From Massalongia carnosa (taxonomy: Eukaryota): a stretch of 64,000 nt of DNA. A program made the position numbers and the translations under genes. Where the stretch lies: positions 1,116,001-1,180,000 of the forward strand of contig OZ287073.1 in the NCBI GenBank assembly GCA_965645245.1, read 5' to 3'. Shown here piece after piece: positions 14,864 through 55,977 of this stretch. Every line of letters begins with the position of its first letter. The first letter of the stretch is position 1. The notes below the pieces were generated by a model. That model saw only the letters and a list, made by a program, of their open reading frames with translations. It was not told the DNA's origin and did not search any database.

Positions 14864-15750
14864 CGTGCTCGACTGACTGTTTATCCAATTTGCGGAACTA
14901 AGGTCAGAGCGTTCGGCAAGCGGCTGTAATCCACCCAACCACCTAGATTTACAACTGATACAAGGACAATTGTGAAGACGGTATTAACCGTGAAGTTGAA
15001 AGGCGTTGAAGTTTGTATTTGGAGGTTGATGGTGCCAGCTCACGAGCCGTGTTGGCTCGTGGATGGGATAACGTTACTTGTAGGCGAGCGCAGGCGAGTC
15101 AAGGTAAGACATGAACGACAGGGTATCATCGAAGGGGGGGTGGCCTAAAGAGGCTGAACGGTTCTTTGATTCTCGAGTAAGGTAGATGAGGATAATGATG
15201 AGGATAGTATGTCCTAGGATACCATGAGGCTATACAAAGTAGCCGACGGCTGGATGAGTTTGCGTGAAGGTGCCAACCTAGGATGATGCCAACAGATGTC
15301 TCAAGTCTGTGTAACTCAGATACCTAATCGTCACCGGGAGTTTTTTTCAGGTCTCCAAGTTAGGTACGAGTATTCTGTAAGTCAGGTTGCATCTTATTGG
15401 TACTCGATCGGTACTTTGAAGATACCTATGCGCCTTAGGTTTGCGTGGTACATCCAAGTATCTACATTTGGATTCTATTTCTATACGGGAGTGTTCTGTA
15501 TATGGCACGGAGTAGGTAGGTACGCTGTAAATTGAGGTTTTTTGTCAAATACTTTCACTTACGGTTTTTCTGTACAAGGAAGTCGATCAACAGGCATGAC
15601 TACTTCGATAGCTGGTATGTACGTACCTCGTTAGACAAGTATGTAACCGTTACCTCTGGCACACTGTAAGTATGTACGGGGTACAGAGTACTCTGTACAT
15701 AATGCGGGAAATCAATCCATGTCGAGCTTTCAGAAGCTCAAGGGAAGGTA

Positions 15751-17088
15751 CAGTCCCGTGCCAAAAGTCTGCGGCCCAACCCGTAATTTTCGTGATTTCG
15801 CGTTTTCAACTCATCAACCCCCCATCTTCCACCTCATCATTTCACCATGCTTCGTGCTTCTTTGACCCCCATAAGTGGTAATCGGCCTCGTAACACTGAA
15901 TTGACGCCATATCAACGTGGTATGATTGTTGGGGCCCAGGCGTTGGGGCACACACCGACCGAGATTGGGAAGACTCTTAATTTCACTAAATCGACCGTGC
16001 AGAGCACCATTCAGAAGCACTCAATTCGCAACGACGGCGTGTCTAAATCACGTTCTGGACGGCCTGAAGTGCTGTCAGAACGCGATCGACGTTATATCAT
16101 CAAGCATGCACGAATCAATCCACGAATCACTTATGCACAAATCAAACTAGAAGTGGGGCTCGGCTGCAGTCGTACGACTATTTATCGGGCACTCAAACTG
16201 TATGGTTTAACCAACTGGGTGGCTAAAAAACGACCTTTATTGACGCCTGAGGTGGCCAAGAAACGATTGGATTGGTGCTTGCTGCGGCGTGAGTGGACTT
16301 TTGAGCAGTGGTCAAGAGTTATATGGTCAGATGAGTGCTCGGTAGAAAAAGGGTCAGGAAAACAGCGTCAGTGGGTGTTCAGATTGCCGAAAGAAAAATG
16401 GAATAAAGAGATGATACAACCTGTCCCCAAAGGCAAAGGAGTCAGTGTCATGGTCTGGGCAGCTTTTTGGGGAGATGATAGGTCAGATCTTTACAAATTG
16501 GCTCGTGGTTTTGCTGCGAAGAAGATGGGGTACTCGGCGAACTCATATATGGAATTATTGAACGATAATCTGCTTGGAATTTGGCAACCGGGCCTCATTT
16601 TCATGCAGGATAACGCACCTATACATAAGGCTAAAAAGGTGATGGAATGGTTCAATGAGAACGGCATAGAGGTCATCGATTGGCCCCCCTATTCACCTGA
16701 TTTAAATCCCATCGAGCACGCTTGGTATGTGCTCAAAAAGCTCGTCTATCAAGTCAACCCGAACATAGATTTGGTGATCGGCAGTGATGAAACTGTTCGT
16801 GAGGTACTTTGGAAAGCGTTAGAAGAAGCCTGGACGTTGATAGATGTGAAAATGATGAGGAGGTTAATAGAGAGCATGAATAGGAGGATAAAAGCGTGTA
16901 TAGCGTCGGAAGGATGGTATACTAAATATTAAAAATCAATTTTTGGGGGAATTCTTGTTTAGTATGTATGTAATCATTATGTAAAGTTTCAAGACATTTC
17001 AGCAATCGTGACGTGGTTGATTGTTGATTGAATAGAATGATTGAAATGTTGGTGGGGTGCGGGGCCGCAGACTTTTGGCCTAGTACTG
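15751..17088 (+). mobile_element. Tc1/mariner DNA transposon, apparently intact (1338 bp)
   Basis: 27-bp TIRs CAGTCCCGTGCCAAAAGTCTGCGGCCC / CAGTACTAGGCCAAAAGTCTGCGGCCC (23/27 match). TA duplications at 15749-50 and 17089-90. Confidence 0.93.
15847..16932 (+). CDS. Tc1-like DD34E transposase, 361 aa
   Basis: Uninterrupted ORF with N-terminal HTH and GRPE motif, WSDE, FMQDNAPIH, WPPYSPDLNPIE. 34 residues counted between the second D and E. Confidence 0.93.
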   Translation: MLRASLTPISGNRPRNTELTPYQRGMIVGAQALGHTPTEIGKTLNFTKSTVQSTIQKHSIRNDGVSKSRSGRPEVLSERDRRYIIKHARINPRITYAQIKLEVGLGCSRTTIYRALKLYGLTNWVAKKRPLLTPEVAKKRLDWCLLRREWTFEQWSRVIWSDECSVEKGSGKQRQWVFRLPKEKWNKEMIQPVPKGKGVSVMVWAAFWGDDRSDLYKLARGFAAKKMGYSANSYMELLNDNLLGIWQPGLIFMQDNAPIHKAKKVMEWFNENGIEVIDWPPYSPDLNPIEHAWYVLKKLVYQVNPNIDLVIGSDETVREVLWKALEEAWTLIDVKMMRRLIESMNRRIKACIASEGWYTKY

Positions 17089-17285
17089 TATCCTGTACAC
17101 ACTAGGTACCCTACAGGCTAGCTTGGGGGTAACTATCTCAGCTGTTCTGAATTCATTTATCAAAGGTAATCGTGCCATACCACCAGTAGTTAATCGTTTT
17201 CGCTTACTAAGTGCCCAACGGCTCAAAGTCCAAAACGGTTCAAAGACCAAATTATTCACCAAACGCGTGCCTACTCCACACCACC

Positions 17286-19061
17286 ATTTCTGATTCGTTC
17301 TGCGACTCTGAAAATCGTCTAGATGAGGCCATCAGCGCGTATAACAGTGGTGATTATTCTAGTGCCAGCGCTGTCGCTCGAAAATTTCACGTCGATTCGA
17401 GGACACTTTGTCGAAGGCTCAATGGAGGGGCTTCGAAATCAACTCGTTCACCAAGCAACAAAGCACTTACAGATGCACAAGAAAAAGCTATTTGTGCTTA
17501 TATTGAGCGATTGGATCATATGGAACAATCAGCTAAGCTCTCAATGGTTCGTGGAGCTGCTAATTACCTGCTCGGTCGAGCATTAGTTGGACAAATTGAT
17601 CGTGATCAAACCGACACTCCACTTCCTACCGTAAGCGCCATGTGGACCAGACGATTTTTAAAACGTCATCCGGAGTACTTCAAACGTAAACAAAAACCCC
17701 TCGCTGTTGAGCGTAAACATTCACACGATTCGAAGAGTATGATTAAGCATTTTGAGCAGTACAAAGTCCTTCGAGAATTGAGGGGAATCGTGGACGAGGA
17801 CACCTGGAACAAGGATGAAACGGGCTTTCGAATTGGCTATGGAAAAGCTCATTGGGTAATTTCGACGCATTCTCATAAGCCTCTTTTGATGAAGGATCCA
17901 GACAACAGAGACTACATTACCTTGATGGAGAGTAGTAGTGGTGGAGGAAGGGATATTTCCCCCATGATCATACTTCCTGGCGTACAAATCAAAGAGAAAT
18001 GGGCCCTGGAAAATTATTTGGATGATGACATTCTTTTCGCCGTCAGTTCAACTGGTTATTCGAATGATGATCTCGCTATTGATTGGTTGAAACATTTTAA
18101 TAAACATAGTGCAAAAGGGCAAATTGGTGCATGGAGGTTGTTGATTTTGGACGGATCTGGATCTCATATGACGTATGAATTTTTCGAGTATGCACAGAGC
18201 AAGCACATCGAATTGTTCAGATTACCTGCTCATTCCACTCATTTGACCCAACCACTGGACGTTGGATGGTTTCAGCCTTTTAAACACTATCATGCTGAGG
18301 CCATTGATGAGGCTATTCGTGCCGGAGGAGGGGAGTTCAACAATATCGACTTTTTGTCGATTTTTCAGGATATGCGCCTCAAAACATTCACCAAATCGAC
18401 GATTTTAGCTGCATTCAGAAACACAGGACTAGTGCCTTATAATCCGAATGTGGTCATCTCGAAAATCGAGGCGCAAAGTCGTCAAAGGCCGACTGCCCCT
18501 CCACCCCCACCATCGGCCCCATTATTGGCCAGAACACCTCGCACTTCCACTGAGGTCATCATCTTTGGCACTAAACTTCAAAGAAGCATGCAGACAAATG
18601 ATGCTATCGACGGAAATTATAGGTTGCATGTCGATCGCTTTTTCAAAGGTGCTATGGCTAGCGCTCATGCTCAGCAATTGGCTGAAAGAGACTTATTGAC
18701 CTCAGCCAGAGCCTCAATTGCTAAGGCAGCGCGTAAAAAGCTTGCTGGAACTGTTGCTCAGTCAGGTGGGGTCATCACCGTTCGAGATGTACGTGCTAAA
18801 GTCACCAAACGACATGAAGATGAGGTGGAAAAGGCACAGAAGGTCTTGGACCGAGCTAAAGCGGCCGCATTGAAAAAGCAACAGGTCATCGACAACGCCG
18901 AAAAGAAGCTCTGGAAAGGACTGTTTCGTGAGGCCAATATCTTCCTCCGAGCATGTAAAAAATGGGAGGTTAAAAGGACCAAATGGTGGAAGGTTTTTCG
19001 TAGTCAAATTGATGATCACGATCAATTTGTCCAACTAATGCTCGACCGAGCAGGTAATTAG
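17286..19061 (+). CDS. Fot1/pogo DD35D transposase; natural start reads ATT instead of ATG
   Basis: Open frame with N-terminal HTH, NKDETGF, LILDGSGSH and THLTQPLDVG (35 residues D-to-D). CACCACC-ATT at 17286 aligns with CACCACC-ATG in the opposite repeat arm. Confidence 0.8.
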   Translation: MSDSFCDSENRLDEAISAYNSGDYSSASAVARKFHVDSRTLCRRLNGGASKSTRSPSNKALTDAQEKAICAYIERLDHMEQSAKLSMVRGAANYLLGRALVGQIDRDQTDTPLPTVSAMWTRRFLKRHPEYFKRKQKPLAVERKHSHDSKSMIKHFEQYKVLRELRGIVDEDTWNKDETGFRIGYGKAHWVISTHSHKPLLMKDPDNRDYITLMESSSGGGRDISPMIILPGVQIKEKWALENYLDDDILFAVSSTGYSNDDLAIDWLKHFNKHSAKGQIGAWRLLILDGSGSHMTYEFFEYAQSKHIELFRLPAHSTHLTQPLDVGWFQPFKHYHAEAIDEAIRAGGGEFNNIDFLSIFQDMRLKTFTKSTILAAFRNTGLVPYNPNVVISKIEAQSRQRPTAPPPPPSAPLLARTPRTSTEVIIFGTKLQRSMQTNDAIDGNYRLHVDRFFKGAMASAHAQQLAERDLLTSARASIAKAARKKLAGTVAQSGGVITVRDVRAKVTKRHEDEVEKAQKVLDRAKAAALKKQQVIDNAEKKLWKGLFREANIFLRACKKWEVKRTKWWKVFRSQIDDHDQFVQLMLDRAGN

Positions 19062-19335
19062 CAGCTCCACGAACCATCGAGAGCTTAGCTGATTGTTCCA
19101 TATGATCCAATCGCTCAATATAAGCACAAATAGCTTTTTCTTGTGCATCTGTAAGTGCTTTGTTGCTTGGTGAACGAGTTGATTTCGAAGCCCCTCCATT
19201 GAGCCTTCGACAAAGTGTCCTCGAATCGACGTGAAATTTTCGAGCGACAGCGCTGGCACTAGAATAATCACCACTGTTATACGCGCTGATGGCCTCATCT
19301 AGACGATTTTCAGAGTCCCAGAACGAATCAGACAT
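18970..19335 (-). CDS. Antisense 121-aa ORF duplicating the transposase N-terminal DNA-binding region
   Basis: ATG 19335 in CACCACCATG context. About 107 aa are near-identical to the transposase N-terminus, followed by a short unique tail. Expression unknown. Confidence 0.5.
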   Translation of the reverse strand: MSDSFWDSENRLDEAISAYNSGDYSSASAVARKFHVDSRTLCRRLNGGASKSTRSPSNKALTDAQEKAICAYIERLDHMEQSAKLSMVRGAANYLLGRALVGQIDRDHQFDYEKPSTIWSF

Positions 19336-19818
19336 GGTGGTGTGGAGTAGGCACGCGTTTGGTGAAGGATGAAATAAATGGTCTTTGAACCGTTTTGGAC
19401 TTTGAGCCGTTGGGCACTAGTAAGCGAAAACGATTACTGGTGGTGTGGCATGATTACCATACTTAGCTTAGTTCCTCGAACTAGTTACCTTATGTAAGCC
19501 AAAACGCTAGTAAGCTGCGACCCTAACCCGAACGGTATCTGCAGTTGGTTATAGTCTGTAGTTAAGAGTACTCTGTACTCATATAGATCGCGTAGGTATT
19601 TTGCATTGTACATTTTGTATACGATCGAGAAATTTCACCTACTCTACTCGGAGCACATGGATCTCTTACGGTTGGTTAGGTAAAGTTGAACGAAAAATTG
19701 CTATGCTAATCTTTTTGCACTCCGCGGTGCATGATAACTGAGAAAACGTATATGGGCGGGAGGCGGAACATGAAGCCAGGTGGTTGGAAAGCTTCTGGAA
19801 TTTGGTACACTTGGAAGA

Positions 19819-22116
19819 ATGGCCCATAAACGTTCGAGAGCAACGTTCGAGGAAGATCGACAGCTTCACCAATCTCCATATGCCGTATATGGAACCCCCC
19901 TTCCTCCGCTTGATCCCGATACTCGTGATGACGGCTCCTACGTCCCTATGTGGAAACAAGAGGTCGTGGATGAACAGGGCCGGAAAAGATTGCATGGTGC
20001 TTTCACCGGTGGCTTCAGTGCGGGGTAAGCCCAAACGATATGGGTCCTCTGCGCCTGGAACGATTGTTGACCGTGGTCGCCCAGATATTTCAATACGGTG
20101 GGATCCAAGGAAGGTTGGACTCCGTCCCAGTTTATCTCATCGCGGAAGAGCCGCAAGAAGGATGCCCCGACTATGCAGCAGAGGCCGGAGGATTTCATGG
20201 ACGAAGAAGACGTGGCAGATGCTGAAGAGAGCAGGAAACTGCAGACGACAGAGGCGTTTGCAGGTCTAGGCTCTACGGCCGAGGATAGGTTACAAAAAGA
20301 ACCTATGATGGATGTTTTCAAAACCACTGGGGATACAATGGGCGTAAAACTGCTAAGGAAGATGGGTTGGCGAGAAGGCCAAGGAGTTGGCCCGAAGGTG
20401 AGAAGAGAAGCACGGCTTGACGATACGGATGATCCAGGTGGTGGTGAAAGGCAAGAGATGCATCTTTTCGCGCCGGAGAACTCTCCGATGATATCGTTTG
20501 TAAGGAAAAATGATCGCAAAGGCCTGGGATTCGAAGGAGAAGGTCGCTTGGCAGATTTAGAGAACGGAGGAGGGGATTCAAAGTCAACGGCAGCGGTCAA
20601 TGAGACACAAAAAACCGAAAAGCGTTTCGGAGTGGTCACCAAGAATACCAAGTTGAAGGAAAAACCGATGGAATCTCGAGGCGGATTCGGTGTTGGAATA
20701 TTAAACGATAACGGTTCTGACGATGAGGATCCCTATCACATGGGCCCGCAGATTTCATATAATCGAATCATCGGAGGAGACAAAAAAAAGAAAAAGCCCA
20801 TCAATGGCAAAACCGCTGCAAACCCTCTCATTAACACTAAACCGATCTTCATTTCCAAAACGGCTTCTGCGAAAAAAGCCAACTCTGGCTTCCGCCGCTG
20901 CCACGATGGCCGTCTACCGCTGGACGGCTTCGTCCTTTTGCAAAGCGTCGATCCTCGATCCTCCCATTCCCGCCAAGAAACCAGATACCCACCTCCTACC
21001 ATCCCTCCGAACTGGAAATCTTCGAAAACCCCAGCGAACCCCGCTCACCCCCCCGCAACCTACCAATCCTCCGCCGCAATCGCGAAAGCCTCAACCCTCA
21101 ACCCCAAAACCCGTGCATCCCTACTTGGCGAAACCCCGCTGCCAGGAAAATCCATTTTCGACTTCCTTTCCCCCTCCGCCCGCACGCGCATCGCTACCGC
21201 AACCCAGAACTCTAATCTCCCCCCTGCCCTCGATGAAGCCAATTCCCTCCCTCCCTCTCAAAATCCCACGTCTCCCTTCTCTCTTATCCCCCCCCTTTCC
21301 CCCACCACCGCCCACGCAGCCCTCAGCCGCGGCTCAGCAGGCTGGACCCCCTACGCCGACGACCCCGAAAAACTCTCCCGCTACCGCCTCTACCTCCAAA
21401 CCCGCGCCTCCCTCCTCCCACCGGATATCCTCCCCGACCGCGCCCCCGGCGCCAGCACCACCGACTGGATCGCCGAAATGCGTGAGTTCGCCCACGCCGC
21501 GCATATTTTCCGCCCGGTCTCCGGCCTTATGGCCACCCGCTTCACCACCGCCTCCTCATCCGCTTCCCAGCTCCTAACTTCCACCCCCGACCAGCGGGGC
21601 AACACGGACCCTCATCCGTTACTGTCTCGTCCCGTGGAGAGAGCTCTTGATCCCGCCATCCAGGCCGCAGCAATTGGCATGTACGGCCCCCTCACGCGCT
21701 CCGTCAAGGAGTTCTTCCCGTCTCGCCTCCTATGCAAACGCTTCAATGTGCAGCCGCCGGCGCACGTTGCTGCCGATCCTCCTCCCCCGGCTCCTCCTAG
21801 CTCGAACTCTCCAGCGGCGCAGGATCCGTCGTTGGCTCCGACGCACTCGAGCGCGTTGCCGCAGCGCCGGCTGGAGCTGGTAGGAACTAGCGAGATGCAG
21901 GAGATGGTAAGGGAGAGGCGGGCGATGGCGAAGGGGATGGATGGGGAAGTGGAAAGGGGCGAGGAAGAGGGATGTGCGGCTCCGGCTCCGACGCCCGCTG
22001 TGCTAGTGGACCCGGAGCGCAACGAGGCTCTGGAGAGGGAGAGACCCGGGGACGCCATCTTTCGAGCTGTGTTTGGGAGTGATGGCGATAGTGACAGCGA
22101 GGGGGAAGCGGGATGA
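19819..22116 (+). CDS. G-patch domain protein, GPATCH1-like
   Basis: ATG 19819. [36 protein letters not shown] across intron 20025-20084. G-patch [25 protein letters not shown] motif; C-terminal IFRAVFGSD. Confidence 0.88.
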
Positions 22117-22718
22117 GATGGGGATATGTATTTCTTGAGTAAGATGGAAGGGGAGGGGGGGCGGGGGGTTGAATTGTTGCTATGAAGAAGAAAGAAAATA
22201 ATAAAAACCAAAACGCGTATTTATGATCTATTTCCCCCTTCTTTCCCCCCCTTTCAAAGGATATATCTTGCCTAAGTTGGCAGCGCTTCAGGGAGAATTG
22301 AATTAAACTACCGAAGCAGTAGAGTAAGCAAGTAACGTAGATGATAGACAGATGGATAGATTGGATTAGATTTAGATTAGATAGATCCATGGATTACATA
22401 TGAACAAACAAGTCCCAACAGCTGCGCTGCGCCGCGCCGCGCCGCGCTTTTTTCCGGCTCCCCTCCCGCCCTTCGTCTCCCCGCCTGGCTAACGGACCGA
22501 TAGTGATGGATGAATAGAAAGAGGTACGTACTTGGTTAGGTTCCGGGGAAATAATTAGGTGGGTAGGTAGGTAGGTAGTAGAAACAGCACTCCCACCCCG
22601 CCCCCTTCCCCCCCCCCAACCCAAAAAGAAGGCTCAGTCGGCCCTACCTACTTACTAGCATAGCCTATATACCTATCAATCCATCCATCCACCGATATGC
22701 TCCTCGACCATCCATTTT

Positions 22719-33660: not shown

Positions 33661-34969
33661 CAAGGCACGCGGGGTGAAAAATTAATTGTCACAGTGCCGA
33701 GGTAAACCCACCCGAGAACCTCACCAAAAACACATCAAAAATAATCAAATTGCTTCATTTATTTACATTTAATACCCCGTTAATGCTCCATGACTATCAA
33801 TGACGGCTCTCAATCGATCAGGCATTGATCGAACTCGTTCATTAATGAATTCCTGAGAAACACGGTCCCAGCCCTCTCGAAGCAGCTGTTCTATAGTAGC
33901 ATCATCCAATGAGGATATTTACGAACATGCTGTTTAATTGGTAGCCAGCAATTTTCAATGGGAGCCAAATCAGGTGACGAAGAACAGTTGAAATAATGCT
34001 CCAAATGATGGTCCTCTTTCCATTTTTTGACAGCGTTTCTGGTTTTGCCCGTTCCATGCCCCGAATCGCCATCCTCCTCCAGAACGAAATCGTCACCTCT
34101 TTTCAGCCAAGGCTTGACGACTGGTTCCAGAATGGAATCGATATAGACCTGATGGGTCATCTTTCCATTATTATTTCCAGGAACATCATAAAAGACGAGC
34201 TGAGACTTCAAATTGTGTCCGATAGCAGCCCAACAATGCTTTCGTTTTCGGGATTTTTCCGGGGGAGGATCACGATGTTGTATGCAGTCCCATCGATATC
34301 GAGTACCGGGCTGTTGAATGATTCGAATTTGACCTTCAGGACCGTGTCCAAAATGCACTTCGTCACTGAATCGGACACGATTCCAGTCTTCTGGATTGGA
34401 ATATCTCATTAACATAACCTTCGAGTACTCTACTCTGCGGTCCATGGGTGGATCACTGAGCCATCCTTTCACACAGGCCATGCAATTTTCGTAATCGAGG
34501 GCCGACTGAAGAACATTTCGCATAGTTCGACCAACAACGTCAGCTCTTACCTCCATAGCTAACTGATCCCATGTGAGTCTTTTTCCCTCCAATCGTAGCT
34601 CATTATCTTGTAAAATATGGTCAGCTTCTCGTATTTGCACGCCCGTCACTTTGATTTTCGACCCCGAGTCTCATTTAAATCAGAATGATGTCGAGTTTGT
34701 GAAGAAACGCCTCTCTCGATCATTCGATAACCCGATCTCGCCTCCACACCGAATTCTTTGAAAATATCCTTCGGATCAACAGGAATACCTTTGGAAAGAA
34801 GAAACTGATAGGCTCCCTGAAATTTGGCCTTCTGAGGTGTGTCGTAGTGAGCATTATACGATTTGGGAGGCATGGTGTGAAATATTAAATGAATCGTTGA
34901 TGTAAATTTGTTGATATTTTGTAAACCTTGGCATTGTGACAGTTATTTTTTCACCCCCGCGTGCAAGTG
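33661..34969 (-). mobile_element. Tc1-like (IS630-Tc1-mariner) DNA transposon
   Basis: Imperfect ~45-bp TIRs (core GCACGCGGGG(G)TGAAAAA..TGTCACA.TGCC.AGGT). TA at 33659-60 and 34970-71. Confidence 0.85.
33769..34873 (-). pseudogene. Frameshifted Tc1-like transposase (DD38E spacing)
   Basis: RFSDE, LEEDGDSGHG, SPDLAPIE. Single-base frameshifts near 34649 and 33908; restoring them gives a C-terminus ...SMPDRLRAVIDSHGALTGY with TAA at 33771-33769. Confidence 0.8.
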
Positions 34970-35357
34970 TACCAGGACAAAAGTTTCCGCGTACTTTTAT
35001 CCATAAACTTAATTAATATAATTTCTTAGATCTATTACTACAGTTTATTAATCGTTCAAAAATATTGGACTTTCGCTTAAATTTTGCGGAGAAAATCATT
35101 ATTTCTAATTTGAAGGACTTTTTAAAATTATTTTAATTTTTAATTATTTGATGATTAATTGATCGATTAGTTTTACAGTGCACCCTGGCTATAACGATCT
35201 TGGTTATAACAATAATCTGGTTATAGCGATTTGACTTTGTGGAATCGGTTATTTTGTTAGACAAATAACGATAACTTCTTTGTTCCGATATCGTTAGCAC
35301 TTCTCGGATTTTTTTGGTGTGCATCGTTATAACCAGAATTATTTTTATCCAATCAAA

Positions 35358-37558
35358 ATGTCCTCGTCCACCTCAACATCAGCCAGTAATGGCCTCAGGG
35401 CCTCCATTTCACCTCCTCCACTTCGTAAAAGACGTCGCGCTATCACCGATGCGGAGCGAAAAGCTCTTCGTGATTACTATTTTGATGAATCAAATTGTCA
35501 TGAAATCGAACCAACCCGATCCAGAATCAATCCCGCAGATGAATCTGACTAAGCTCCCGTTCCTCTATTCAGCTTAGTCAGAATCTCATTAACTAAATCG
35601 AGTTTAGACCCCTCTCAACGGCTTCAGGTCAAAGCTGTACCATCACCATCAAAGCGTACCAACGACAGGAGAACCTCATCTCCACCTTTTATCGTCAAAC
35701 ACCTCGTCATACCTTCGTGCCGTACGTCTCCTAATAGGGGGAGATGAACACTGATCGAATCTTCATGCAAAGGGGTTCGAGACAAATATAAAAGGAAGGA
35801 CAAGTTAATTAGATAGTTGACTCCTTGTCCGACGTCTTGTATAGCAATCCATCACCTAGCTATAGCCTTATTAATAAAGACATCTTGATCACCCAATCCA
35901 ATTCCTAGGAACATTAGTTCAATCCCCTGCCCAGTCCTTGACACAAATGGTAGACCTCCCCATAAGCAACTTCGTCAGTTGTTCGAGCGGCAGTTTCATC
36001 ATTTTCCCTCTCAATCGACCATATCCGAGTCACTTTCTTCCACTTCGCTCACTTGGACAATAAGGTGCAGCGTTTAGAGGTCAGAAAAAACCGTGCAGCA
36101 CAATGGCCAGATCTCGAAGACGCTTTATTCGAGTGGCAGCAACGAATGATGCGAAAAGAAGCTACAATAACAGGAGAAATTCTTAAAGAGATAGCCGCTA
36201 TCTTTTGGAGTAAGCTTCCTCAATATGCTGACGAAGAACAGCCCAAATTCTCTACTGGCTGGCTGGATGGCTTCAAAAATCGACATCAGATCAGAAAATA
36301 TAGAAGACATGGCGAGGTCGGTGCTGTTGATAATGTAGTCGTAGAGACTGAGCTGAAGAATATACGTGAGCATCTCAAAGAATATGATAATCGCGATATT
36401 TTCAATATGGATGAGACAGGTCTTTTTTGGAAGATGAGCCCGGATGGTACGCTTGCCACTCAGCAAACACCTGGAGGTAAACACGAAAAAGCCAGAATAT
36501 CTGTCAATTTCGCTACAAATGTGACCGGCACGGACAAACTTCCTCCATGGTTCATTGGAAAGCCGCAAATCCTCGCTGTTTTGGACGATCTGGCATCAAC
36601 ATCCACAATTTCCGAATGGGCTGGCGTTTCAATCAAAAGGCCTAGATGACTGGACGAATTTTCAAAGAATATTTGCTTTGGTTTGATAATCGAATGACTG
36701 GACGCAAGGTAATTCTTTTGATAGATGGATTTTCAGCTCATAAAGCAGGTGATTCAGCTATAACACAATTTGATGAATTCATTCACTCACTGAGTTAACA
36801 GGCATCGATTTATTGTATGAAGAATTTCCCGCTGGCCTTACAAACACGAAAATCCTTTTCCTTCCTGCGAATGCAACCTCTCTGTGTCAACCTCTAGATC
36901 AAGGCATTATTCATGCCTGGAAAGCTCATTATCGAAGAAGATGGCTGCGTTACATTTGTTCTGAATACGAAAAAGACATTGATCCCACTAAAACAATGAA
37001 CGTTTTACAAGCTATTCGTTGAGGGATTGACGCATGGGAGCAGGACGCTACTGAGACAACAATCAATAATTGCTGGGTGAAATCTCGGGTGTTGAGTGCT
37101 AAATATGGTCCAATGAACAGAGAGGAGGTGGAGAATATGGGCTGGCATCAAGAGGTGAAGGAGGATAATTCTTCATATGACGCTGTCATTTCGAGTATGG
37201 CTCAACAAATGCATCATCTGGTTCATCAGGATAGAATCGCAAAGGCGATGTCTATTACTCAGTTTTTAAATCCACAAGAGGAGGATGTTTATGACACCGA
37301 GGAAGTCTTGATCGACGACATCGTCAATTCGTACAGCAGGGAGGAAAGAGCTTATGAGACCAATGAGGGGGATGTAATCATGCCTCGAATTCGTCATAAT
37401 GAGGCTATTTTGGCTCTACAAACTCTTCGTGTGTATGAGAACAGCAGGATGAAGGTGATAGTGAGCTCATTTCACGTATAAATCGACATGAAAGGGTTAT
37501 CAGGCAAAGGACCAAGCAGGGGCATAAACAAACCACAATTGATAGCTATTTTACATAG
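35358..37558 (+). pseudogene. Disrupted pogo-like transposase
   Basis: ATG 35358. CENP-B HTH (WPDLEDALFEW...FSTGWLDGFK), NMDETG, LIDGFSAH, QPLDQG. Probable intron 36749-36801. Interrupted by a solo LTR, frameshifts and a premature TGA at ~37020. Confidence 0.85.
35496..35943. mobile_element. Solo LTR (448 bp)
   Basis: TGTCA...TGACA termini. 5-bp TSD CAAAT at 35491-95 and 35944-48. TATAAAA and AATAAA inside. Its removal restores the pogo reading frame (DESN|GRPPH). Confidence 0.88.
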
Positions 37559-37687
37559 TAAATGGGGGGAATTCAAGCTTTCTTTGGGTATAACGATATT
37601 CTCCTTATACGATTTGACCTCATGGAAAATCAAAATCGTTATAGCCAGGGTGCACTGTAATATATTTAAATTATAAAAAAATCGCAC

Positions 37688-43652: not shown

Positions 43653-44408
43653 AGGCGTGATGGGATTCGAAGTGTCAAGGGGATAAATTTCTTCTGGGAA
43701 GGTTGAAGGATTAAGCATGAGGTTTTTGGACTTAAAAGTCACCCGCCTCTTTAATATATCTTATTGCCCCCACCTCCAATCATCAACCCTCTCGCTCCCC
43801 ATGTCTTCATCTCCCAACCCATTACCCTCCATCTCCCCCCTAAATTCCCCCAGGAACCTCTCCAAATCCAACTCCCTACCCCTTGGGAACTCTAAAAAAC
43901 AAAATCTATTTTACTGGGGAAGAAGAAGGCCACAGAATACGCTAAAATGCCTACCGTAGATGAGTTAGGTGCAAGACAGCGCGCTAGTGTTAACCTGGGT
44001 TGATGAACAGGGTTCTAAGTTTGGCAAGCAAGCGTAAGCGTAGATGAATGACGAGAGGGGAAAAGGACGATGAATGCGATTGCACAGGAACGGTGGACCC
44101 CTGAGTAGCAACTAGGACGACGACGAAAAAAACGAACTACCTCGACACCTAGAATGTCGGTGAAAAACTCCCCACGAGTAATCTAGCTACCTATCCAAGC
44201 TGTGAAAGTCTCATCATAGTTACAGTATCCTTGGGCGTTAATTCGTCGCTTTGCGCCAGAGGAGGCTCATACTCGGGGAGAGTCGGAGTTGGAGAAAGGA
44301 TGAAATAATTAACGTGAAGAGGTACAGTAGAGGGATGGATGAAATGCATACCTTTTTTGGATGTAGCTCAAAGGTGTTATGGCCCAGATACATAGTACAT
44401 ACTCCGTA

Positions 44409-46555
44409 TCCCTTCGTCTGGCAATTTGGCAGCCACCTTAAATAGGCTTAGTGAGATACCGTAGGGCTGAGTCGCGAACTTCAAAACATTCTCCCCTTTT
44501 TTTGTAAATAAGAAGGTAAACATCAGTTGAAAATCATTAAAACATCTACAATTTCTTTAGAATAATCATGAGAGGCATTGAGATAGAAGTTCCTGACCAA
44601 TCAGACGCTTTGCCCCCCTCAATTCTGAAAGAACAGGCCAAAAAGAATAAACCCAGCGTACAAAGCATAATTGACTCCATGCCCCCTCCGTCATCAAATT
44701 ATTGTCCAATTTCGATCCCATTTCGAAAACCACAGCCGGACGAGACGTTGCGCTTGATAAATCAGACTCCTTTCAGTTATTCTGCCTCTTCTTTAGCTTT
44801 GAAATGCTTGAAATCATAGCTAAAAACACCAATCTTAAAGCGAAAAAGAAGTATGCCCTAAACGACATCAAGAGACGTCAATGGCATGACACCTCTTCTT
44901 CTGAAGTAGGAGCTTTTCTGGGAATTCTGTTATATATGGGGTATACACTGATGCCACGTCTTACTGACTATTGGAACACGTCTCCTAAATTTGCCATACA
45001 TGACATGGTGATTCAAGCCATGAGTCTTCGAAGATGGGAGCAACTCAAGCGATTTTTGAAGATATCCAACCCCGACGAAGATGAGATCATTGATACTCGA
45101 GGCCCTGACTGGTGGAAAAAGCTGGAACCATTGGCCACAGACTTTCGAAAAGCATCAAAGAAATACTGGATTCCTGGAAGTCATGTGTCAGTTGACAAGC
45201 AATTGATTTTATTCAGGGGTAGGAGCTGCCATACTATGCAAATAGCCACCAAGGCGGCTGGTGTAGGCTTCAAAATCTATAGTTTATGTCAGGAAAATTA
45301 TCTTTTTGACTTCTTATTTACCTCCAAGGTGAGTAGAAAAGGCCTCAATTTGCATCGTACTAATTAATTGCAAGACAGGTGTCCAAAATTAGTGAGTTAA
45401 AAACGCCTGGACAATTGAAATTTCCGACAACCAAATGGGATTTGTCTCCTTCCTCCCTAGTCGTCATTCAACTGGCTCGAAGTTTACCGTCTGATGAAGG
45501 CTTGAAATACGTCATCTTTCTGGACAACTTCTTCACAAATACGAAGCTATTCAAAGCTCTGAAAACCATTGGAATTGGTGCCTGTGGGACGGCTAAATCA
45601 GGATGCGGTTTTCCTGTTGATCTTCTACGTCTGAGGGTTGCAGCCACCAAGAATAAGGACTGGGGAAAGAAGGCATTGATGACGGTACCTGCAAATAAAA
45701 GTAAAAAATCAAACATTGATGACGGGGACATTCTGTGTATGGCATGGGTGGATTTAAACACCGTGCAATTCATGACCACGGTTCATACAATTGAGGATTT
45801 GAAGACTTCTTTCTACAAGAATTCCCGTCGACGTCATGGAATTCCTGCAAATTCCAGAGTCATCGTTGATGATGAAGAAGAAAAGCTTCCATTTCCCATG
45901 CCCATCGTGGAATATAACCAGCACATGGGCGGGTCAGATGGGAATGCTCAGCAAAGAGCATATTATTCACCTCAAAGATCTGATCGTCGCTACTGGTGGT
46001 CAATTTTCATCTTTCTTCTGGATGCAGCCGTTCTAAATGCCTTCAAATTGTGGAGAATTCTGTATCCGAATTCAACACTCAGCCATTTGGACTTTCAAAA
46101 AGAAATAGTAAATGCCCTACTATCCAATCAAGCCGGTGCCCTACGGAAACGTCCGACAGATGTCATAGTTACTACTAATCAAGACGTTAATAAAGACGTC
46201 GAGTCAACTTGCAAATGGGAGCATTTGAATAAGAAGGACTATTGTTTGGCCTGCAAAAGGCAAGTGCCAAGACTCAAACGACGCCGACCACTTGCGGAAA
46301 TTGATGAAAATTGCACCAAAAGACGACGTGCAAGTCAGACCAGATGGCAATGTAAGAGCTGTGGACCATGTTGCAAAAAGGAGGCATGTTGGGAAATTTT
46401 ACATAGATCATGAGGGGTGATTGAGGTGTTGTACCCATTATCGTTGAAAAGGGAAAATCTGATTGGCCAGATTAAAGTTATTAGTCATTACCCGGAGACG
46501 GCGCGTGTAAAATTGAATATTACCTAAATGGCTGCCAAATTGCCAGACGAAGGGA
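44409..46555 (+). mobile_element. piggyBac-like DNA transposon, copy 1
   Basis: 27-bp perfect TIR TCCCTTCGTCTGGCAATTTGGCAGCCA, flanked by TA on both sides. Contains a piggyBac transposase. Confidence 0.9.
44568..46413 (+). pseudogene. piggyBac transposase with a 50-nt intron and one frame discontinuity
   Basis: SVDKQLILFRGR, FLDNFFT, YNQHMGGSD, RYWWSIF, C-terminal Cys-rich domain. Intron 45329-45378 (GTGAGT...ACTAAT...CAG). Frame change near 44740. Confidence 0.8.
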
Positions 46556-47549
46556 TAGGTGGTAGGAGAAGTAGTGCCCTCCTGTATGCTCCCTGGCCCT
46601 GCTCGTTCCAACAAGCCGAAAATGCCATATATCATAATATGTATCAGCGACTTTGTTGAGACTATAACCGCAACAGGAGAAATATGGGGGCTAGTTGATA
46701 TAACTATTAGTGGTCTAACCAAACGAGCTGCGAATGCAAATATACTCAGGAAAAAACATTGACTAGCAACTACTATGAAAGGAGAAAGTGGCTGCTCCTA
46801 TTTATGCCTGTGTACCACCCGTTCCAGAAGCCCCTAACTTCCAGCCACCTCTATTATGCAGTCGTAATGCTTCGTGCAAAGGTTTTACCGGCTTTTTGTA
46901 GACTTTTATAGTTGAAGGAGAGGCAGAGTGAACGACTGGTTTGCCAGTGGTTTTGGCACCTAGTTCAACATCGTGTGCCGTTATGACAGATGCCCACAAT
47001 GATGATAGCCGTTACGATCTGACGAGTGAAAGCAAGAATGATATGAAGAATTCTCCGTGCTATGTAGAGTAATAAGTCAGCCTGCAGGACTAAACTAGGA
47101 CCAATGGGGCTACGCGAGTAGAGTGCACGGCCCCCTTCTCGCTTCGGACTTGAAGCTATTCGGCTCTTTTCAGACCACATGAAGACAACAACAAGAAGAA
47201 CGACATGAAGACAAAGACAGGAAGAAAGATTTAATCATGGGAGTTCGGTGGGCTAAAGTCTTTGAGGTCGAAAATATGGCATCAAAGTCTAGTATCTACC
47301 GTCGCCAAACCCTGTGCGCCCCCCCAAAAAAGATCCCCATCATGCCAGACGCGCCAGAATATCACATGATGGAGTTCGGAGTCTAGATATGTCAGCGCTG
47401 TTGAATTTTCAGTCTAATCATGTCGGCACCCATGAGCGCTCTTCTCTCGTTCACTACTTGATCAACAAGAACACACCAGATTATTGCACAAGACCCAACG
47501 TCTTCCTGACCCATGTTCTGAGCAGAGTCACTAAAGAAGTCTCCCAAAG

Positions 47550-48466
47550 ATGAGTGCCCGGTGCGACAGATGCAAACGGATTTTCTCCCATAATGATGCG
47601 TTGATGCAACACTATCTCAACGCCTCCATCCACAATTACTGCAAGCGATGTAAACGAGACTTCGGCACACCGGTAGCTTTGGAGGAGCATCAAAAAAAAA
47701 GCTCCAGTCATAATTTTTGTGACCAGTGTGGGAATGATTATTTTCAGACAAGTGACCTGATGGAGCACATTGAAGAATGCCATTGGTATTGTGCAAAGTG
47801 CAAGCTGTTCGTAGAGACCGGCTCTTTGCTACAAAAACACTATGAAAAAAGCTCCGCCCATCACTACTGTGGTCCCTGCAAGATGGAATTCAATAGTGCA
47901 GGTCATCTAAATACTGTCAGTATAATCTGTCTTTCCTCTATCAGAAACCTAATAAGCTTATCAATCATCAGCACCTTCGTTCAGCCAGCTATGTCAACCC
48001 CGACGTCGAATGCCCAAGATGCACCGCACAGTTTCCCTCCATCTCATCTATGGTGATTCACATGGAATCTGGAACCTGCGCCTCGGGTGCCACGCGGCGA
48101 ATGGTCAACGACAACGTCCGCAGGTGGGACCCGTACCACCTCGTCACAGAGTACTTTTCCACCCACGCGAATGTCGACACCGAAAAAGAAGAAGTAGCCG
48201 CAACCTGGCAGCCAGCCATGCGGAATGACTATGTCCACCAATGCTGTTTCTGCCACCGGAAGTTCCGCAATCTCCTGGCCCTTACTCAGCATCTGAATAG
48301 CCCCGTGCACCAGCCGAAGATTTACAACTGCCCCGCGTGCACCACTAGGTTCACAGTGTTCAGCGGCCTAGTGCAGCACGTGGAGAGCGACTCCTGCGGG
48401 ATCTCTAGGCTTCCGGAGGTTAAGCGAGCCTTCGATTACATCACTTACAAACTAAGCCACATATGA
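47550..48466 (+). CDS. Multi-C2H2 zinc-finger protein
   Basis: Tandem CxxC-x12-H fingers. Intron 47916-47971 joins to HLRS...CPRC...HMESGTC. C-terminal LTQHLNSPVH...CPAC...LVQHVESDSCG. Confidence 0.85.
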
Positions 48467-51400: not shown

Positions 51401-52747
51401 GTGAGTACTCTATAGTTCGAAAGAATACGATGTTTCGCTAGAGTTAATGAGGCTGGACAGCGCTCCCTATCGAGGGCTTCAGGCATTGACTCGAGCGGTA
51501 AGAAAGATAAGCTTCGAAAGAGGCATAAAGGAGTATGCATCTAGATCGTGAAGCCTACTAGCGCAAGTTTTAAGTCGGGTCAGAAAGATCTATGTTCACC
51601 ACAGCCGCATAAATGCATACTCACTTCAGCCAACAGTTACTTCCGCAAGCATAGATGTGCATACGCAGGCGAATCAACAGCGAATTCTTGTCTTTTGCCC
51701 TCCGACTTCAATGTCATTTTCATGGTAATCTTGGAAATGGTTCGAGCGCTCGAAAGGCTATTAGCATCCGTGAAGTCCCAGTCAGCTGCAAGAGCTTGGC
51801 GATAGCCTTCGTTTCATGGTCCGTCATAGGTAGTATAGAGACTCTTTTCATACGTAGATACAGATACCCATTTTCATAACCAAGAAAAAGGCTAAGCGGT
51901 CAAGACGGCGTTGAAGTCTATTGCTGGCCATTTGCTCAAGGAAAGTTTGCAGGTACATGGTTCAATTTAGGCGCTGCGTCATATTTGGCAAGTCAACGCT
52001 TCTCACACCTGGTGGCTCATTCTCAGATCTCCACTCGTATCAGGATAAAAAGTACGGACTCAAAGGCCACTTGAGGTGAGACTGAATGCTTCACCGCTTC
52101 GATATGTGAAAGCTATGCCACTAACTTAGGTATTAGATTTCCTCTCGTTTCTTTTTGGCAGGCAGGCAAATTTCTTCCGGATCCTATTGTCTGCTGATCC
52201 GTGAGCCGCCGAGTAGATGGACCATCTCCCACCTTGCGCTTTGCATCAGATCTGGGGGATCTATTAAAAATTCAACTGCATTTGACAAGCGAATGATACG
52301 GACCAAACAAATAAAATCAGGTAACATGTATGCAGATGTTAGCCCAGTAGAAATTAGGAACAGAGTCGGTACAGCCTTGATCCACAAATAACTCCTCATC
52401 CTTCAGCTACAATGCATTTTAGAATGTAGTGGTTTCATCCTTACCGGTCGACTTGCAGAGATCCATAAGGACAGGAGCCTAGGTATTTTAGTTCTTACCT
52501 GTCGCAACACCTGACAGCATGAGGATATCCTCATGTTATTCATCAAGCTGATGCCAATGGTTCGATTCAATATCGGTGTTTGTTGCGCGTAAAAAACAAA
52601 AATTAAATATTTATATTTTAAATTTAAAACTTTAGAATTGTGATTGACTTCAGGACCAACCATAGAAAGACCGAGCACGATTCAATGTCGTAAAAGTTCA
52701 TCCTTGCAGCGATCATCGAGGGTGGTTAGTGTAACTAACTAACCCTA

Positions 52748-54891
52748 TCCCTTCGTCTGGCAATTTGGCAGCCATTTAGGTCAATTTTACACGCGCCGTC
52801 TCCGGGTAATGACTAATAACTTTAATCTGGCCAATCAGATTTTCCCTTTTCAACGATAATGGGTACAACACCTCAATCACCCCTCATGATCTATGTAAAA
52901 TTTCCCAACATGCCTCCTTTTTGCAACATGGTCCACAGCTCTTACATTGCCATCTGGTCTGACTTGCACGTCGTCTTTTGGTGCAATTTTCATCAATTTC
53001 CGCAAGTGGTCGGCGTCGTTTGAGTCTTGGCACTTGCCTTTTGCAGGCCAAACAATAGTCCTTCTTATTCAAATGCTCCCATTTGCAAGTTGACTCGACG
53101 TCTTTACTAACGTCTTGATTAGTAGTAACTATGACATCTGTCGGACGTTTCTGTAGGGCACCGGCTTGATTGGATAGTAGGGCATTTACTATTTCTTTTT
53201 GAAAGTCCAAATGGCTGAGTGTTGAATTCGGATACAGAATTCTCCATAATTTGAAGGCATTTAGAACGGCTGCATCCAGAAGAAAGATGAAAATTGACCA
53301 CCAGTAGCGACGATCAGATCTTTGAGGTGAATAATATGCTCTTTGCTGAGCATTCCCATCTGACCCGCCCATGTGCTGGTTATATTCCACGATGGGCATG
53401 GGAAATGGAAGCTTTTCTTCTTCTTCATCATCAACGATGACTCTGGAATTTGCAGGAATTCCATGACGTCGACGGGAATTCTTGTAGAAAGAAGTCTTCA
53501 AATCCTCAATTGTATGAACCGTGGTCATGAATTGCACGGTGTTTAAATCCACCCATGCCATACACAGAATGTCCCCGTCATCAATGTTTGATTTTTTACT
53601 TTTATTTGCAGGTACCGTCATCAATGCCTTCTTTCCCCAGTCCTTATTCTTGGTGGCTGCAACCCTCAGACGTAGAAGATCAACAGGAAAACCGCATCCT
53701 GATTTAGCCGTCCCACAGGCACCAATTCCAATGGTTTTCAGAGCTTTGAATAGCTTCGTATTTGTGAAGAAGTTGTCCAGAAAGATGACGTATTTCAAGC
53801 CTTCATCAGACGGTAAACTTCGAGCCAGTTGAATGACGACTAGGGAGGAAGGAGACAAATCCCATTTGGTTGTCGGAAATTTCAATTGTCCAGGCGTTTT
53901 TAACTCACTAATTTTGGACACCTGTCTTGCAATTAATTAGTACGATGCAAATTGAGGCCTTTTCTACTCACCTTGGAGGTAAATAAGAAGTCAAAAAGAT
54001 AATTATCCTGACATAAACTATAGATTTTGAAGCCTACACCAGCCGCCTTGGTGGCTATTTGCATAGTATGGCAGCTCCTACCCCTGAATAAAATCAATTG
54101 CTTGTCAACTGACACATGACTTCCAGGAATCCAGTATTTCTTTGATGCTTTTCGAAAGTCTGTGGCCAATGGTTCCAGCTTTTTCCACCAGTCAGGGCCT
54201 CGAGTATCAATGATCTCATCTTCGTCGGGGTTGGATATCTTCAAAAATCGCTTGAGTTGCTCCCATCTTCGAAGACTCATGGCTTGAATCACCATGTCAT
54301 GTATGGCAAATTTAGGAGACGTGTTCCAATAGTCAGTAAGACGTGGCATCAGTGTATACCCCATATATAACAGAATTCCCAGAAAAGCTCCTACTTCAGA
54401 AGAAGAGGTGTCATGCCATTGACGTCTCTTGATGTCGTTTAGGGCATACTTCTTTTTCGCTTTAAGATTGGTGTTTTTAGCTATGATTTCAAGCATTTCA
54501 AAGCTAAAGAAGAGGCAGAATAACTGAAAGGAGTCTGATTTATCAAGCGCAACGTCTCGTCCGGCTGTGGTTTTCGAAATGGGATCGAAATTGGACAATA
54601 ATTTGATGACGGAGGGGGCATGGAGTCAATTATGCTTTGTACGCTGGGTTTATTCTTTTTGGCCTGTTCTTTCAGAATTGAGGGGGGCAAAGCGTCTGAT
54701 TGGTCAGGAACTTCTATCTCAATGCCTCTCATGATTATTCTAAAGAAATTGTAGATGTTTTAATGATTTTCAACTGATGTTTACCTTCTTATTTACAAAA
54801 AAGGGGAAGAATTTTTTGAAGTTCGCGACTCAGCCCTACGGTATCTCACTAAGCCTATTTAAGGTGGCTGCCAAATTGCCAGACGAAGGGA
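52748..54891 (-). mobile_element. piggyBac-like DNA transposon, copy 2 (inverted, near-identical to copy 1)
   Basis: Same 27-bp TIRs; TA at 52746-47 and 54892-93. Reverse complement of 44409-46555 with a handful of differences. Confidence 0.9.
52884..54732 (-). pseudogene. piggyBac transposase, copy 2 (same intron and frame discontinuity)
   Basis: ORFs 54481-54732, 53933-54598 and 52884-53921 match copy 1 except E/D, +E, R/Q and N/S. Confidence 0.8.
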
Positions 54892-55977
54892 TACTGTATT
54901 TTAAGAAATTTTTTCGCTTGAGGCTTGGCTTCCGTAGATTGGAGGCGTTCTTGCACAAGGATTTTCGTTGGAGATTTTCATAGCCTCATTCTGTCTACTG
55001 CCAAAAGGTACCATAAGGTATTATACGCTGTGTACGAGTATCGAGCAGGTACTCTGTAGATAGTAGTGCTTCGCCTACAGACTTGATATGTGGGATTTTT
55101 AGACTCCCATGAAGCCATGAAGCATGAACATAAAGGGAATCAAGGTACAATGGCGATGATGCCAATGGCGATGATCGGTTGAAAAAACCTTGCAGAGATG
55201 CTGGAGGATAGAGATCATGTGATGGCGATTGTCGGTTGGATGCCCCTTTCCCAATTAGGCTTAACCACCTCGACACCTCGAACTGGACACAGCGTTTGGT
55301 AAGGTAAGGTAAGGATGGGATGATACGGTATGTACTAGTACGAGTACGGAGTACTGTAAGTATAGTACCTGCAGCGGAAGGTTCCATCTCTCGCATTCCA
55401 CAAATCGCTAGTCCGAGTCGAGTCAAGTGGACATTCTGATGGAATAACGCAGCCAATCAAAGCGTGCATATTTGGCGGCTTTTAGTGTTTCGAAATTGGG
55501 AGTGATTTGGCGTTCCTCTCTCCAGAGTACCCTGTCACCTGTACATCAGTACGGAGTTGTTGGCGCTTGGTCATCGTCCGGCGTTAGCCATCCATCCCTC
55601 CACTAACTGCTCACTCGGACGGTTCTCCTTGGGGTGCGAAGCCTAGAAGGACAATCTCTCGAAAGACGATCTCTCGCTGGCTTCGATGAACGAGAGGCTT
55701 GACTCGTGACTGTTGGCTCTTTACAGAGTAGTTATCAATCTCTCCATTGCCAATTAATTCGCCTAACCTGGCGTAGTCAACCACCACAACCACCCTTCGC
55801 TCAAATCTCGAACGAAGCACAAGCCTCCTTTCCTTCTCCGTCCTTCTCAAGCATTAGCCACTTGGCACTGATCACTTGCGTACGCGCGCGTGCGAGATGG
55901 ATCGCCGCATCGGATGAAGCACCCTATCTACCTCTACCTTACCCCATAACTACCCGAGTCATGACGGCTCCTTAACC

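What the first reader, a model, noticed from the sequence alone, without database searches (positions are those of the whole stretch)
17165..19458. Fot1/pogo transposon whose ~445-bp TIRs contain the start of its own transposase: possible built-in repressor and hairpin
Seen: both ends carry the terminal region plus the first ~107 codons of the transposase, facing inward. The right arm keeps ATG in a strong CACCACC context and encodes a 121-aa protein with the HTH region but no DDD core. Known: Fot1-type TIRs are normally tens of bp, and truncated DNA-binding-only transposases act as repressors in other systems (e.g. P-element KP). Inference: convergent promoters, a foldback dsRNA and a dominant-negative protein could make this a self-limiting element. 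The arms have diverged by several substitutions and indels, so this is unlikely to be a simple read artefact.
Basis: partly seen in the sequence, partly recalled or inferred. Interest (0 to 1): 0.75.

Follow-up and report, generated by a model that had tools for sequence, protein, structure and literature searches.

The report
One-off two-headed fungal pogo transposon
One copy of an ordinary fungal jumping gene has had a mirror image of its own front end pasted into its back end, a known kind of rearrangement whose RNA could fold into a long silencing hairpin, though nothing yet shows that it does.

Summary
The inverted arms are real (17169-17608 and 19013-19454; 5 substitutions in 428 aligned bases, 4 indels), but they are not this family's TIRs. 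The 12 other copies with a 5' end in this genome have no second arm, intact copies are 1.95 kb with 86-90-bp TIRs, and the junction occurs once in 52 Mb. The window copy is a normal FotC-like pogo element in which 15 bases just inside the right TIR were replaced by a 366-base inverted copy of the 5' end. One variant found only in the two arms points to copying from its own left end. Replacement of the 3' end by the 5' end is described for mariner and Galileo. The long ORF has lost its ATG (ATT). The 121-aa product keeps the first helix-turn-helix but lacks the last helix of the second, so a KP-like repressor is doubtful. A read-through RNA would fold into a ~346-bp stem, Dicer and Argonaute genes are present, and the layout resembles maize Mu killer. 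No RNA run was available, and a sister subfamily sharing many 21-mers looks at least as young. Most likely a repair scar; a natural silencer remains possible at about 12%.

The parts
17167..17168 (.). left TA target-site duplication
   Evidence: all 11 other aligned 5' ends begin with TA after different flanks
17169..17254 (+). left TIR of the family type (86-90 bp in intact copies); here with a 4-base and a 1-base insertion, followed by a 16-base deletion at its inner edge
17255..17608 (+). 5' leader and codons 1-107 of the transposase: the template of the duplicated segment
   Evidence: 99% complementary to 19013-19366
17286..19061 (+). Fot-type pogo transposase frame, 591 codons, open, DD35D (D177, D289, D325), start codon ATT; the last few normal codons are replaced by sequence read from the inverted arm
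19003..19029 (.). rearrangement junction (between 19012 and 19013) inside a local 9-bp-stem, 7-base-loop hairpin; unique in the genome
19013..19378 (-). 366-base inverted copy of the 5' end standing where normal copies have 15-16 bases
   Evidence: joint 19012->19379 with 15-16 letters between in runs X1, X2, X4
18970..19335 (-). 121-aa ORF: transposase residues 1-107 plus 14 residues read from the antisense core; first HTH complete, second HTH lacking its last helix
19379..19454 (-). outer part of the right TIR, with one private change at 19451; a 9-base gap between two TGG triplets marks its inner edge
19455..19456 (.). right TA target-site duplication
15749..17090 (+). neighbouring, unrelated Tc1-type element with an open 361-aa transposase, 76 bases to the left (context)
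19819..22116 (+). host G-patch/DUF1604 gene whose probable start lies about 360 bases from the right end (context; possible source of leftward transcription, untested)
   Evidence: exon 1 inferred from the ORF at 19819 and a GTAAG donor near 20026

Best explanation
A single, accidentally rearranged copy of an ordinary FotC-like pogo family, now probably a passive relic. Shown: relative to normal copies, 15 bases just inside the right TIR were replaced by a 366-base inverted copy of the 5' end, which stretches the apparent TIR from about 88 to about 445 bases and leaves almost the whole transposase frame in place. Inferred: this arose by break repair or template switching at the right end, using the element's own left end as template (TIR homology or a TGG match at the outer joint; a TTGA match with a 3-base duplication, or a blunt join, at the inner joint), while the subfamily was active. 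Shown: the left arm now differs by loss of the ATG and a 16-base deletion upstream of it; inferred: these came after the duplication, since the right arm keeps the ancestral state. The copy has not spread. Inferred: it has no selected regulatory role; any hairpin RNA would be a by-product.
For: Junction found once in 52 Mb against 13 matches to the normal 3' junction. 12 other 5' ends in the genome, none with a second long arm in the fetched loci; 12 of 12 3' ends examined are of the normal type. Contigs of 3 of 4 runs show the normal 15-16-base joint. The T at 17409 occurs in the two arms only, 2 of 13 pattern matches; the right arm shares a pair-private variant with the left arm and with none of 11 other copies, and CpG sites are not enriched for such changes. 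Flanks are single-copy. No sign of protection of the short ORF: 0 private changes against 3 on the left, p = 0.25. The same rearrangement class is described for mariner (PMC4161770) and Galileo (PMC3573991). Three sister-subfamily copies keep intact 578-aa ORFs, differ by 0.6-1.2% and share 93-97 of 334 arm 21-mers.
Against: By raw distance the right arm is closer to copy L012 (2 of 444) than to its own left arm (5 of 428); origin in cis rests on one shared variant, which later gene conversion could also give. The age comparison with the sister subfamily is not significant (Fisher p 0.20-0.36). The youngest pair of its own subfamily (L002/L012, 1.13%) is as old as the arms (1.17%), which is also what a silencer would leave. 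At the copy-wide private rate, 0 changes in the 321 coding bases of the right arm has p = 0.037. No empty-site allele was seen, so a single TA target is assumed.
Confidence: 0.7

Rival explanations
1. Natural 'killer' allele: born by accident as above, but transcribed from a transposon promoter or from the G-patch gene's promoter region into a fold-back RNA that Dicer cuts into siRNAs, silencing the family in trans.
For: Predicted fold of 17260-19456 has 346 long-range pairs against 26 for a normal copy; perfect runs of 239 and 65 bp; 2 Dicer-dimer loci and 2 Piwi-domain loci in the genome; 203-313 of 334 arm 21-mers are present in the 5 closest copies; layout matches Mu killer, two TIRs from one end plus an inverted partial transposase (PMC3440606); a second individual appears to carry it; none of the 5 closest copies with a start codon has a full 578-aa ORF.
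Against: No transcript evidence. The left arm lacks 16 bases and the right arm 9 bases just upstream of the ORF. A sister subfamily with 92-97 shared 21-mers has pairs at 0.59-0.70%, as young as or younger than the arms, though not significantly so. No excess of C>T changes in this copy (10 of 19 private changes, against 7 of 14 and 9 of 17 in two others).
Confidence: 0.12
2. Different origin: two separate copies inserted close together facing each other (a local hop), followed by a deletion that removed the 3' TIR of one and most of the other.
For: The right arm is 2 of 444 from L012 on the same contig; this route is proposed for rearranged mariner lineages (PMC4678618). A local hop of this same copy would also explain the shared T.
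Against: Needs a deletion ending within 15 bases of the first copy's TIR; the 9-base gap at the inner edge of the right TIR fits a second template-switch joint; both ends have GG outside the TA, which 0 of 20 other full-element ends show, fitting one palindromic target, though GG does occur at 2 mini-element or displaced ends.
Confidence: 0.12
3. The 121-aa product is made and acts as a DNA-binding repressor, like the P-element KP protein.
For: ATG in good context and an open 121-aa frame; first HTH complete (HTH_psq 9-52, E 0.025, below cut-off; helices 3-21, 27-34, 38-45); truncated repressors exist in P elements (PMC7776569). Recalled, not seen: the N-terminal HTH of Drosophila pogo binds TIR DNA on its own.
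Against: The second HTH loses helix 118-127 with its conserved W120 (42 of 49 homologues), R123 (37 of 44) and F124 (36 of 40); HTH_Tnp_Tc5 falls from 38 to 16 bits, below the 22-bit cut-off; single copy; its RNA would run into the complementary left arm; no significant sign of selection.
Confidence: 0.04
4. Assembly or read artefact (fold-back chimera).
For: Runs X1, X2 and X5 show no laid contig across 19013, and no listed piece bridges the junction in the printed part of the table.
Against: The arms differ by 5 substitutions and 4 indels, with changes private to each. In X2 and X4 the unique right-flank contig starts at 19421, exactly 30 bases before the arm's private base at 19451; X4, from another study and differing in the flank, has a single-copy-depth contig over 19013 with one other letter. 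Contigs also drop other single-copy alleles of this element, so the blank in X1 and X2 is uninformative.
Confidence: 0.03
5. A self-limiting family whose normal form has 445-bp TIRs.
For: Very long TIRs (392-856 bp) exist in some insect pogo elements (PMC7386202).
Against: 1 junction in the genome; every other copy examined has short TIRs.
Confidence: 0.01

Closest known systems
Fot family of pogo transposons, FotC-like (PMC7386202, passages read)
   Same: DD35D triad, DDE_1 plus HTH_Tnp_Tc5 and a weak HTH_psq, TA target duplication, TIR near 90 bp (TA occurs only in FotC and FotD; about 100-bp TIRs mainly in FotC), fungal host.
   Different: This copy's 445-base arms are a private rearrangement; clade placement by tree was not done.
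Mariner derivatives with the 3' end replaced by the 5' end (Dromar7, 11, 28, 36; PMC4161770, passages read; reverse case Rpmar17/49, PMC4678618)
   Same: Inverted copy of one end, including transposase sequence, gives unusually long TIRs.
   Different: Those are shortened, amplified MITE lineages; here only 15 bases were lost, the element grew to 2.29 kb, and it did not amplify.
Galileo TIR extension by recruiting the sequence next to TIR1 (PMC3573991, passages read)
   Same: Break at one end repaired from the other end, so that the region inside TIR1 appears inverted inside TIR2.
   Different: P superfamily with natively long TIRs; the recruited DNA described there is upstream of the coding region, here it includes 107 codons.
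Maize Mu killer (PMC3440606, abstract and passages) and Ac-silencing composite insertions (10.1101/2020.01.07.897926, abstract and one results section)
   Same: Single locus, both ends from the transposase-proximal end, inverted partial transposase, fold-back RNA possible.
   Different: Silencing was shown genetically there, and dsRNA and siRNA for the Ac cases; nothing of the kind is shown here. Mu killer lacks the central element, whereas here a 1.4-kb core forms the loop.
P-element KP and 66-kDa repressors (PMC7776569, passages read)
   Same: Truncated transposase without catalytic core.
   Different: The 66-kDa repressor keeps the THAP DNA-binding domain; KP keeps it too and is widespread in many copies (recalled); this ORF is single-copy and cuts its second HTH.

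Membership tests
Fot/pogo transposon | DD35D catalytic triad | tested here: met
   D177, D289, D325 with 35 residues between the last two; DDE_1 E 3e-19
Fot/pogo transposon | HTH_psq and/or HTH_Tnp_Tc5 DNA-binding domain | tested here: met
   HTH_Tnp_Tc5 63-134, E 1.5e-9; HTH_psq 9-52 below cut-off; top structural match CENP-B 1HLV, probability 0.95 but E 0.09
Fot/pogo transposon | TA or TAA target duplication and TIR of 40-100 bp | tested here: met
   TA at both ends; TIR 86-90 bp in 3 intact copies
Fot/pogo transposon | Phylogenetic placement in FotC | not tested
   no tree against reference Fot transposases was built; 'FotC-like' rests on TSD and TIR length
Long-TIR derivative by 5'-for-3' replacement | Inverted copy of 5' internal sequence inside the 3' TIR, relative to a normal parent | tested here: met
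Long-TIR MITE lineage | Amplified to two or more independent sites | tested here: not met
   1 junction match in the genome
Killer locus (Mu killer type) | Inverted duplication of the transposase 5' region at one locus | tested here: met
Killer locus (Mu killer type) | Transcribed into dsRNA and processed to siRNA | not testable with these tools
   no RNA run listed; Dicer and Argonaute domains present
Killer locus (Mu killer type) | Silences related copies in trans | tested here: inconclusive
   only an indirect age comparison, not significant
KP-type truncated repressor | Complete DNA-binding domain without catalytic core | tested here: not met
   second HTH lacks its last helix; binding by the first HTH alone not tested
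KP-type truncated repressor | Protein is expressed and represses transposition | not testable with these tools
   needs ribosome profiling and a transposition assay

The most novel reading that the evidence does not exclude
A transposon copy that turned itself into a silencer of its own family in a fungus: a near-intact autonomous element gained a second head, its read-through RNA became a 346-bp hairpin, and the resulting siRNAs ended the activity of its closest subfamily while a 5%-diverged sister subfamily partly escaped. A second copy (C9) breaking at the same base would then point to a repeatable weak spot 100 bases inside the right end.
Probability: 0.12. Interest if true: 0.65.

Novelty: new member of a known kind. 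Interest (0 to 1): 0.27.

Why it matters
As a scar it is a tidy, nucleotide-resolved example of how short TIRs become long ones, in a fungal Fot element and with almost no loss of sequence. If it makes siRNA it would be a natural Mu-killer-type locus in a fungus; none of the 6 papers listed for 'Mu killer' + 'fung' + 'transposon' or the 15 of 22 listed has such a case in its title or abstract start, but these searches cover open-access papers only and I did not read those papers. The arm-specific T allele and the unique junction make the test cheap.

Tried and rejected
No RNA holder listed among 9 runs, so expression was not examined. Reads were laid on 17620-22200 only, so the left flank and an empty-site joint were not examined. 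A scan of metagenome contigs with the 121-aa protein found 279 pattern matches and no confirmed relative. Sequence search of solved structures with the full protein gave only chance matches. Foldseek gave no match at E <= 0.001. A paper search for long-TIR mariner MITEs with six terms found 0 papers; a looser one found them. The paper on pogo HTH binding (PMC148200) is not held, so that point is recalled. The promoter scan is for bacterial promoters and says nothing here. RIP as the cause of arm divergence: rejected, private C>T changes across copies fall on CA 25/274, CG 14/184, CC 13/167, CT 13/213. R42C, shared by both arms, lies at a variable HTH position (R in 18 of 65), so it is not evidence of a dead domain. 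GG outside both TAs: considered as a sign of copying past the end, left as inconclusive. The junction hairpin folds only modestly better than shuffles (z -1.7, 11 of 200). Earlier-findings look-ups by full word list and by sequence returned nothing. No complex prediction was run. No supplements were consulted.

Full report
Observation. The repeat finder reports inverted arms at 17255-17608 / 19013-19366 (354 bases, 99%) and 17210-17258 / 19370-19418; alignment extends them to the termini. The element lies between TA dinucleotides at 17167-68 and 19455-56. The arms differ by 5 substitutions in 428 aligned bases and four indels: 4 and 1 bases inserted and 16 deleted on the left, 9 deleted on the right. 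The plus-strand frame 17286-19061 is open for 591 codons but begins with ATT; the right arm keeps ATG and gives a 121-aa ORF.

Family. The protein has DDE_1 and HTH_Tnp_Tc5 and a DD35D triad. With TA duplications and TIRs of 86-90 bp in three intact 1,947-base copies, it fits the Fot family of pogo, FotC-like by the features given in PMC7386202 (passages). No tree was built. The run listing points to a lichen fungus.

Other copies. A search of the 52-Mb genome with the whole element gave one full-length match, itself; the other close copies match positions 3-1848 and then only a short TIR (40 of 165 candidates scored). The arm alone finds 14 long matches, two of them the window's arms (40 of 48 scored). 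In the 15 other loci compared (two of them overlap one copy), none has a second long arm. All 12 other 3' ends printed continue with the normal 8 bases and TIR. An exact pattern for the junction has 1 match; a pattern for the normal junction has 13.

What changed. Contigs from three of four runs join 19012 to 19379 with 15-16 letters between: normal copies have 15 bases where this one has 366. The event was therefore close to a pure insertion of an inverted 5' segment just inside the right TIR. The inner joint can be read as a TTGA microhomology with a 3-base duplication or as a blunt join, and sits in a 9-bp hairpin. The 9-base gap on the right lies between two TGG triplets at the TIR's inner edge and may be the outer joint (inference).

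Source of the arm. One C>T change (17409, R42C) is shared by both arms and by no other copy: 2 of 13 genome-wide matches. The right arm shares no pair-private variant with any of 11 other copies, and among 21 pairs of close copies 17 share none, 3 share one and 1 sister pair shares eight over 1.85 kb. That favours copying from its own left end, or later conversion between the arms. Against it, the right arm is nearer by raw count to L012 (2 of 444), which is close to the ancestral state. On the cis reading the copy was still intact when it gained the second head, and the ATG loss, W6C and the 16-base deletion came later (one search lists the codon differences).

Is it real? Evidence is from contigs only. 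In X2 and X4 the unique right-flank contig starts at 19421, 30 bases before the arm's private base 19451, which is where a 31-mer assembly would branch; X2 has 0 differences over 2.78 kb, X4 has 11 plus 27 gap bases and comes from another study. X4 has one contig at single-copy depth (35.6) over 19013 with T>C, 31 letters from its end, which most simply is the junction with one change. With the divergence between the arms, an artefact is unlikely.

Precedent. Seven mariner MITE sublineages arose by replacement of the 3' portion by the 5' sequence and have unusually long TIRs (PMC4161770, passages); the reverse occurs in Rhodnius (PMC4678618, passages). Galileo extends its TIRs by repairing one end from the other (PMC3573991, passages). 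The unusual points here are that almost nothing was deleted and that the product did not spread. Unchecked notes from this scan describe fold-back transposon remnants in several other genomes, which suggests such structures are not rare.

Repressor protein. AlphaFold models give six helices for residues 1-145 (pLDDT 90) and five for the 121-aa product; the missing one is 118-127, whose W, R and F are conserved in 42 of 49, 37 of 44 and 36 of 40 homologues with a residue there (65 of 150 hits were aligned, chosen for short length and a match from the N terminus). The best structural match is the two-HTH CENP-B domain, weakly (E 0.09). The first HTH is whole, so some binding is not excluded; I recall that Drosophila pogo's N-terminal HTH binds TIR DNA alone but could not read the paper. 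The short ORF has 0 private changes against 3 on the left (p = 0.25); against the copy-wide rate p = 0.037, against half the arm divergence p = 0.16. This is at most a faint hint.

Hairpin. A transcript of 17260-19456 folds with 346 long-range pairs, against 26 for a normal copy; perfect runs are 33, 14, 239 and 65 bp. The genome has two loci with a Dicer dimerisation domain and two with a Piwi domain. The five closest copies hold 203-313 of the arm's 334 21-mers, the sister subfamily 92-97, L014 114, and three distant families 0. Mu killer has the same plan (PMC3440606), and Ac composite insertions make dsRNA from their own or a flanking promoter (bioRxiv 2020.01.07.897926, section 17). Here the right end lies about 360 bases upstream of a G-patch gene, in what was a divergent region with a KIN1-like kinase gene (name from my reading of the ORF; for G-patch). 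No promoter was located, and no RNA could be examined. The only indirect test is age: arms 1.17% (95% range 0.4-2.7%), youngest own-subfamily pair 1.13%, sister pairs 0.59-0.70% with three intact ORFs; the differences are not significant. It fits a silencer with limited reach and equally fits a scar made during the burst. There is no RIP pattern.

Unexplained. A scar on C9 has TA, 9 bases of TIR and 229 bases of the 3' core, and stops at the same base as the window's junction before running into single-copy DNA. It is closest to the window copy (4 of 229; next 7) but lacks one of its private changes. A break hotspot, copying from the two-headed element that stalled at the hairpin, or a collapsed daughter copy are all possible.

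Verdict. Real structure, ordinary family, known class of rearrangement, single copy. Most likely a repair product without function (0.7). A Mu-killer-like role is open (0.12) and directly testable; a protein repressor is unlikely (0.04). Interest 0.27.

Noticed in passing
G000:C9:1355434-1355662 (L041:535-763, minus strand): Second rearranged copy of the family that stops at exactly the same base as the window's junction; closest to the window copy (4 of 229 differences); both flanks single-copy.
   Followed up: partly
L031-L036 (C14, C8, C7, C1): Six 64-68-base palindromic mini-elements made only of the outer parts of the two TIRs, between TA dinucleotides; one side always ends at the internal TA about 36 bases in. 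Two share flanks. Possibly tiny MITEs or footprints of excision at an internal site.
   Followed up: partly
L003, L006 with L040, L037, L038: The internal CTAG of the TIR is a repeated site of interruption: about 380 bases inserted in L003 and about 13 kb in L006, the latter apparently with its own inverted ends. Two sister families keep the CTAGTG motif at the same distance in their 100-105-bp TIRs.
   Followed up: partly
window 44406-46560 and 52741-54894: Two piggyBac-like copies (PF13843), 2142 of 2149 aligned bases identical, in inverted orientation around 6.2 kb that holds C2H2 zinc-finger ORFs at 47550-48466: a composite-like layout.
   Followed up: partly
window 15749-17090: Tc1-type element with an open 361-aa transposase and 29-bp inverted ends, 76 bases from the pogo copy; together they separate the KIN1-like and G-patch genes by 3.7 kb.
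   Followed up: no
L012 / L042 (C7 near 930 kb): The copy closest to the right arm stops near family position 1630 at a sequence starting TGTTG, possibly an LTR insertion; its 3' part was not found, and the C9 fragment begins within 4 bases of that point.
   Followed up: partly
L045 (C8:2113879) and L046 (C11:1322620): Further normal 3' junctions without a long internal match; L045 holds about 100 bases of 3' end and half a TIR, L046 gave no alignment to the reference copy.
   Followed up: partly
window 35173-37660 and 33671-34957: Two more pairs of 33-bp inverted ends, 2.4 and 1.2 kb apart, probably further DNA transposons.
   Followed up: no
window 57705-57911: Three tandem 69-base units in a probable coding region.
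   Followed up: no
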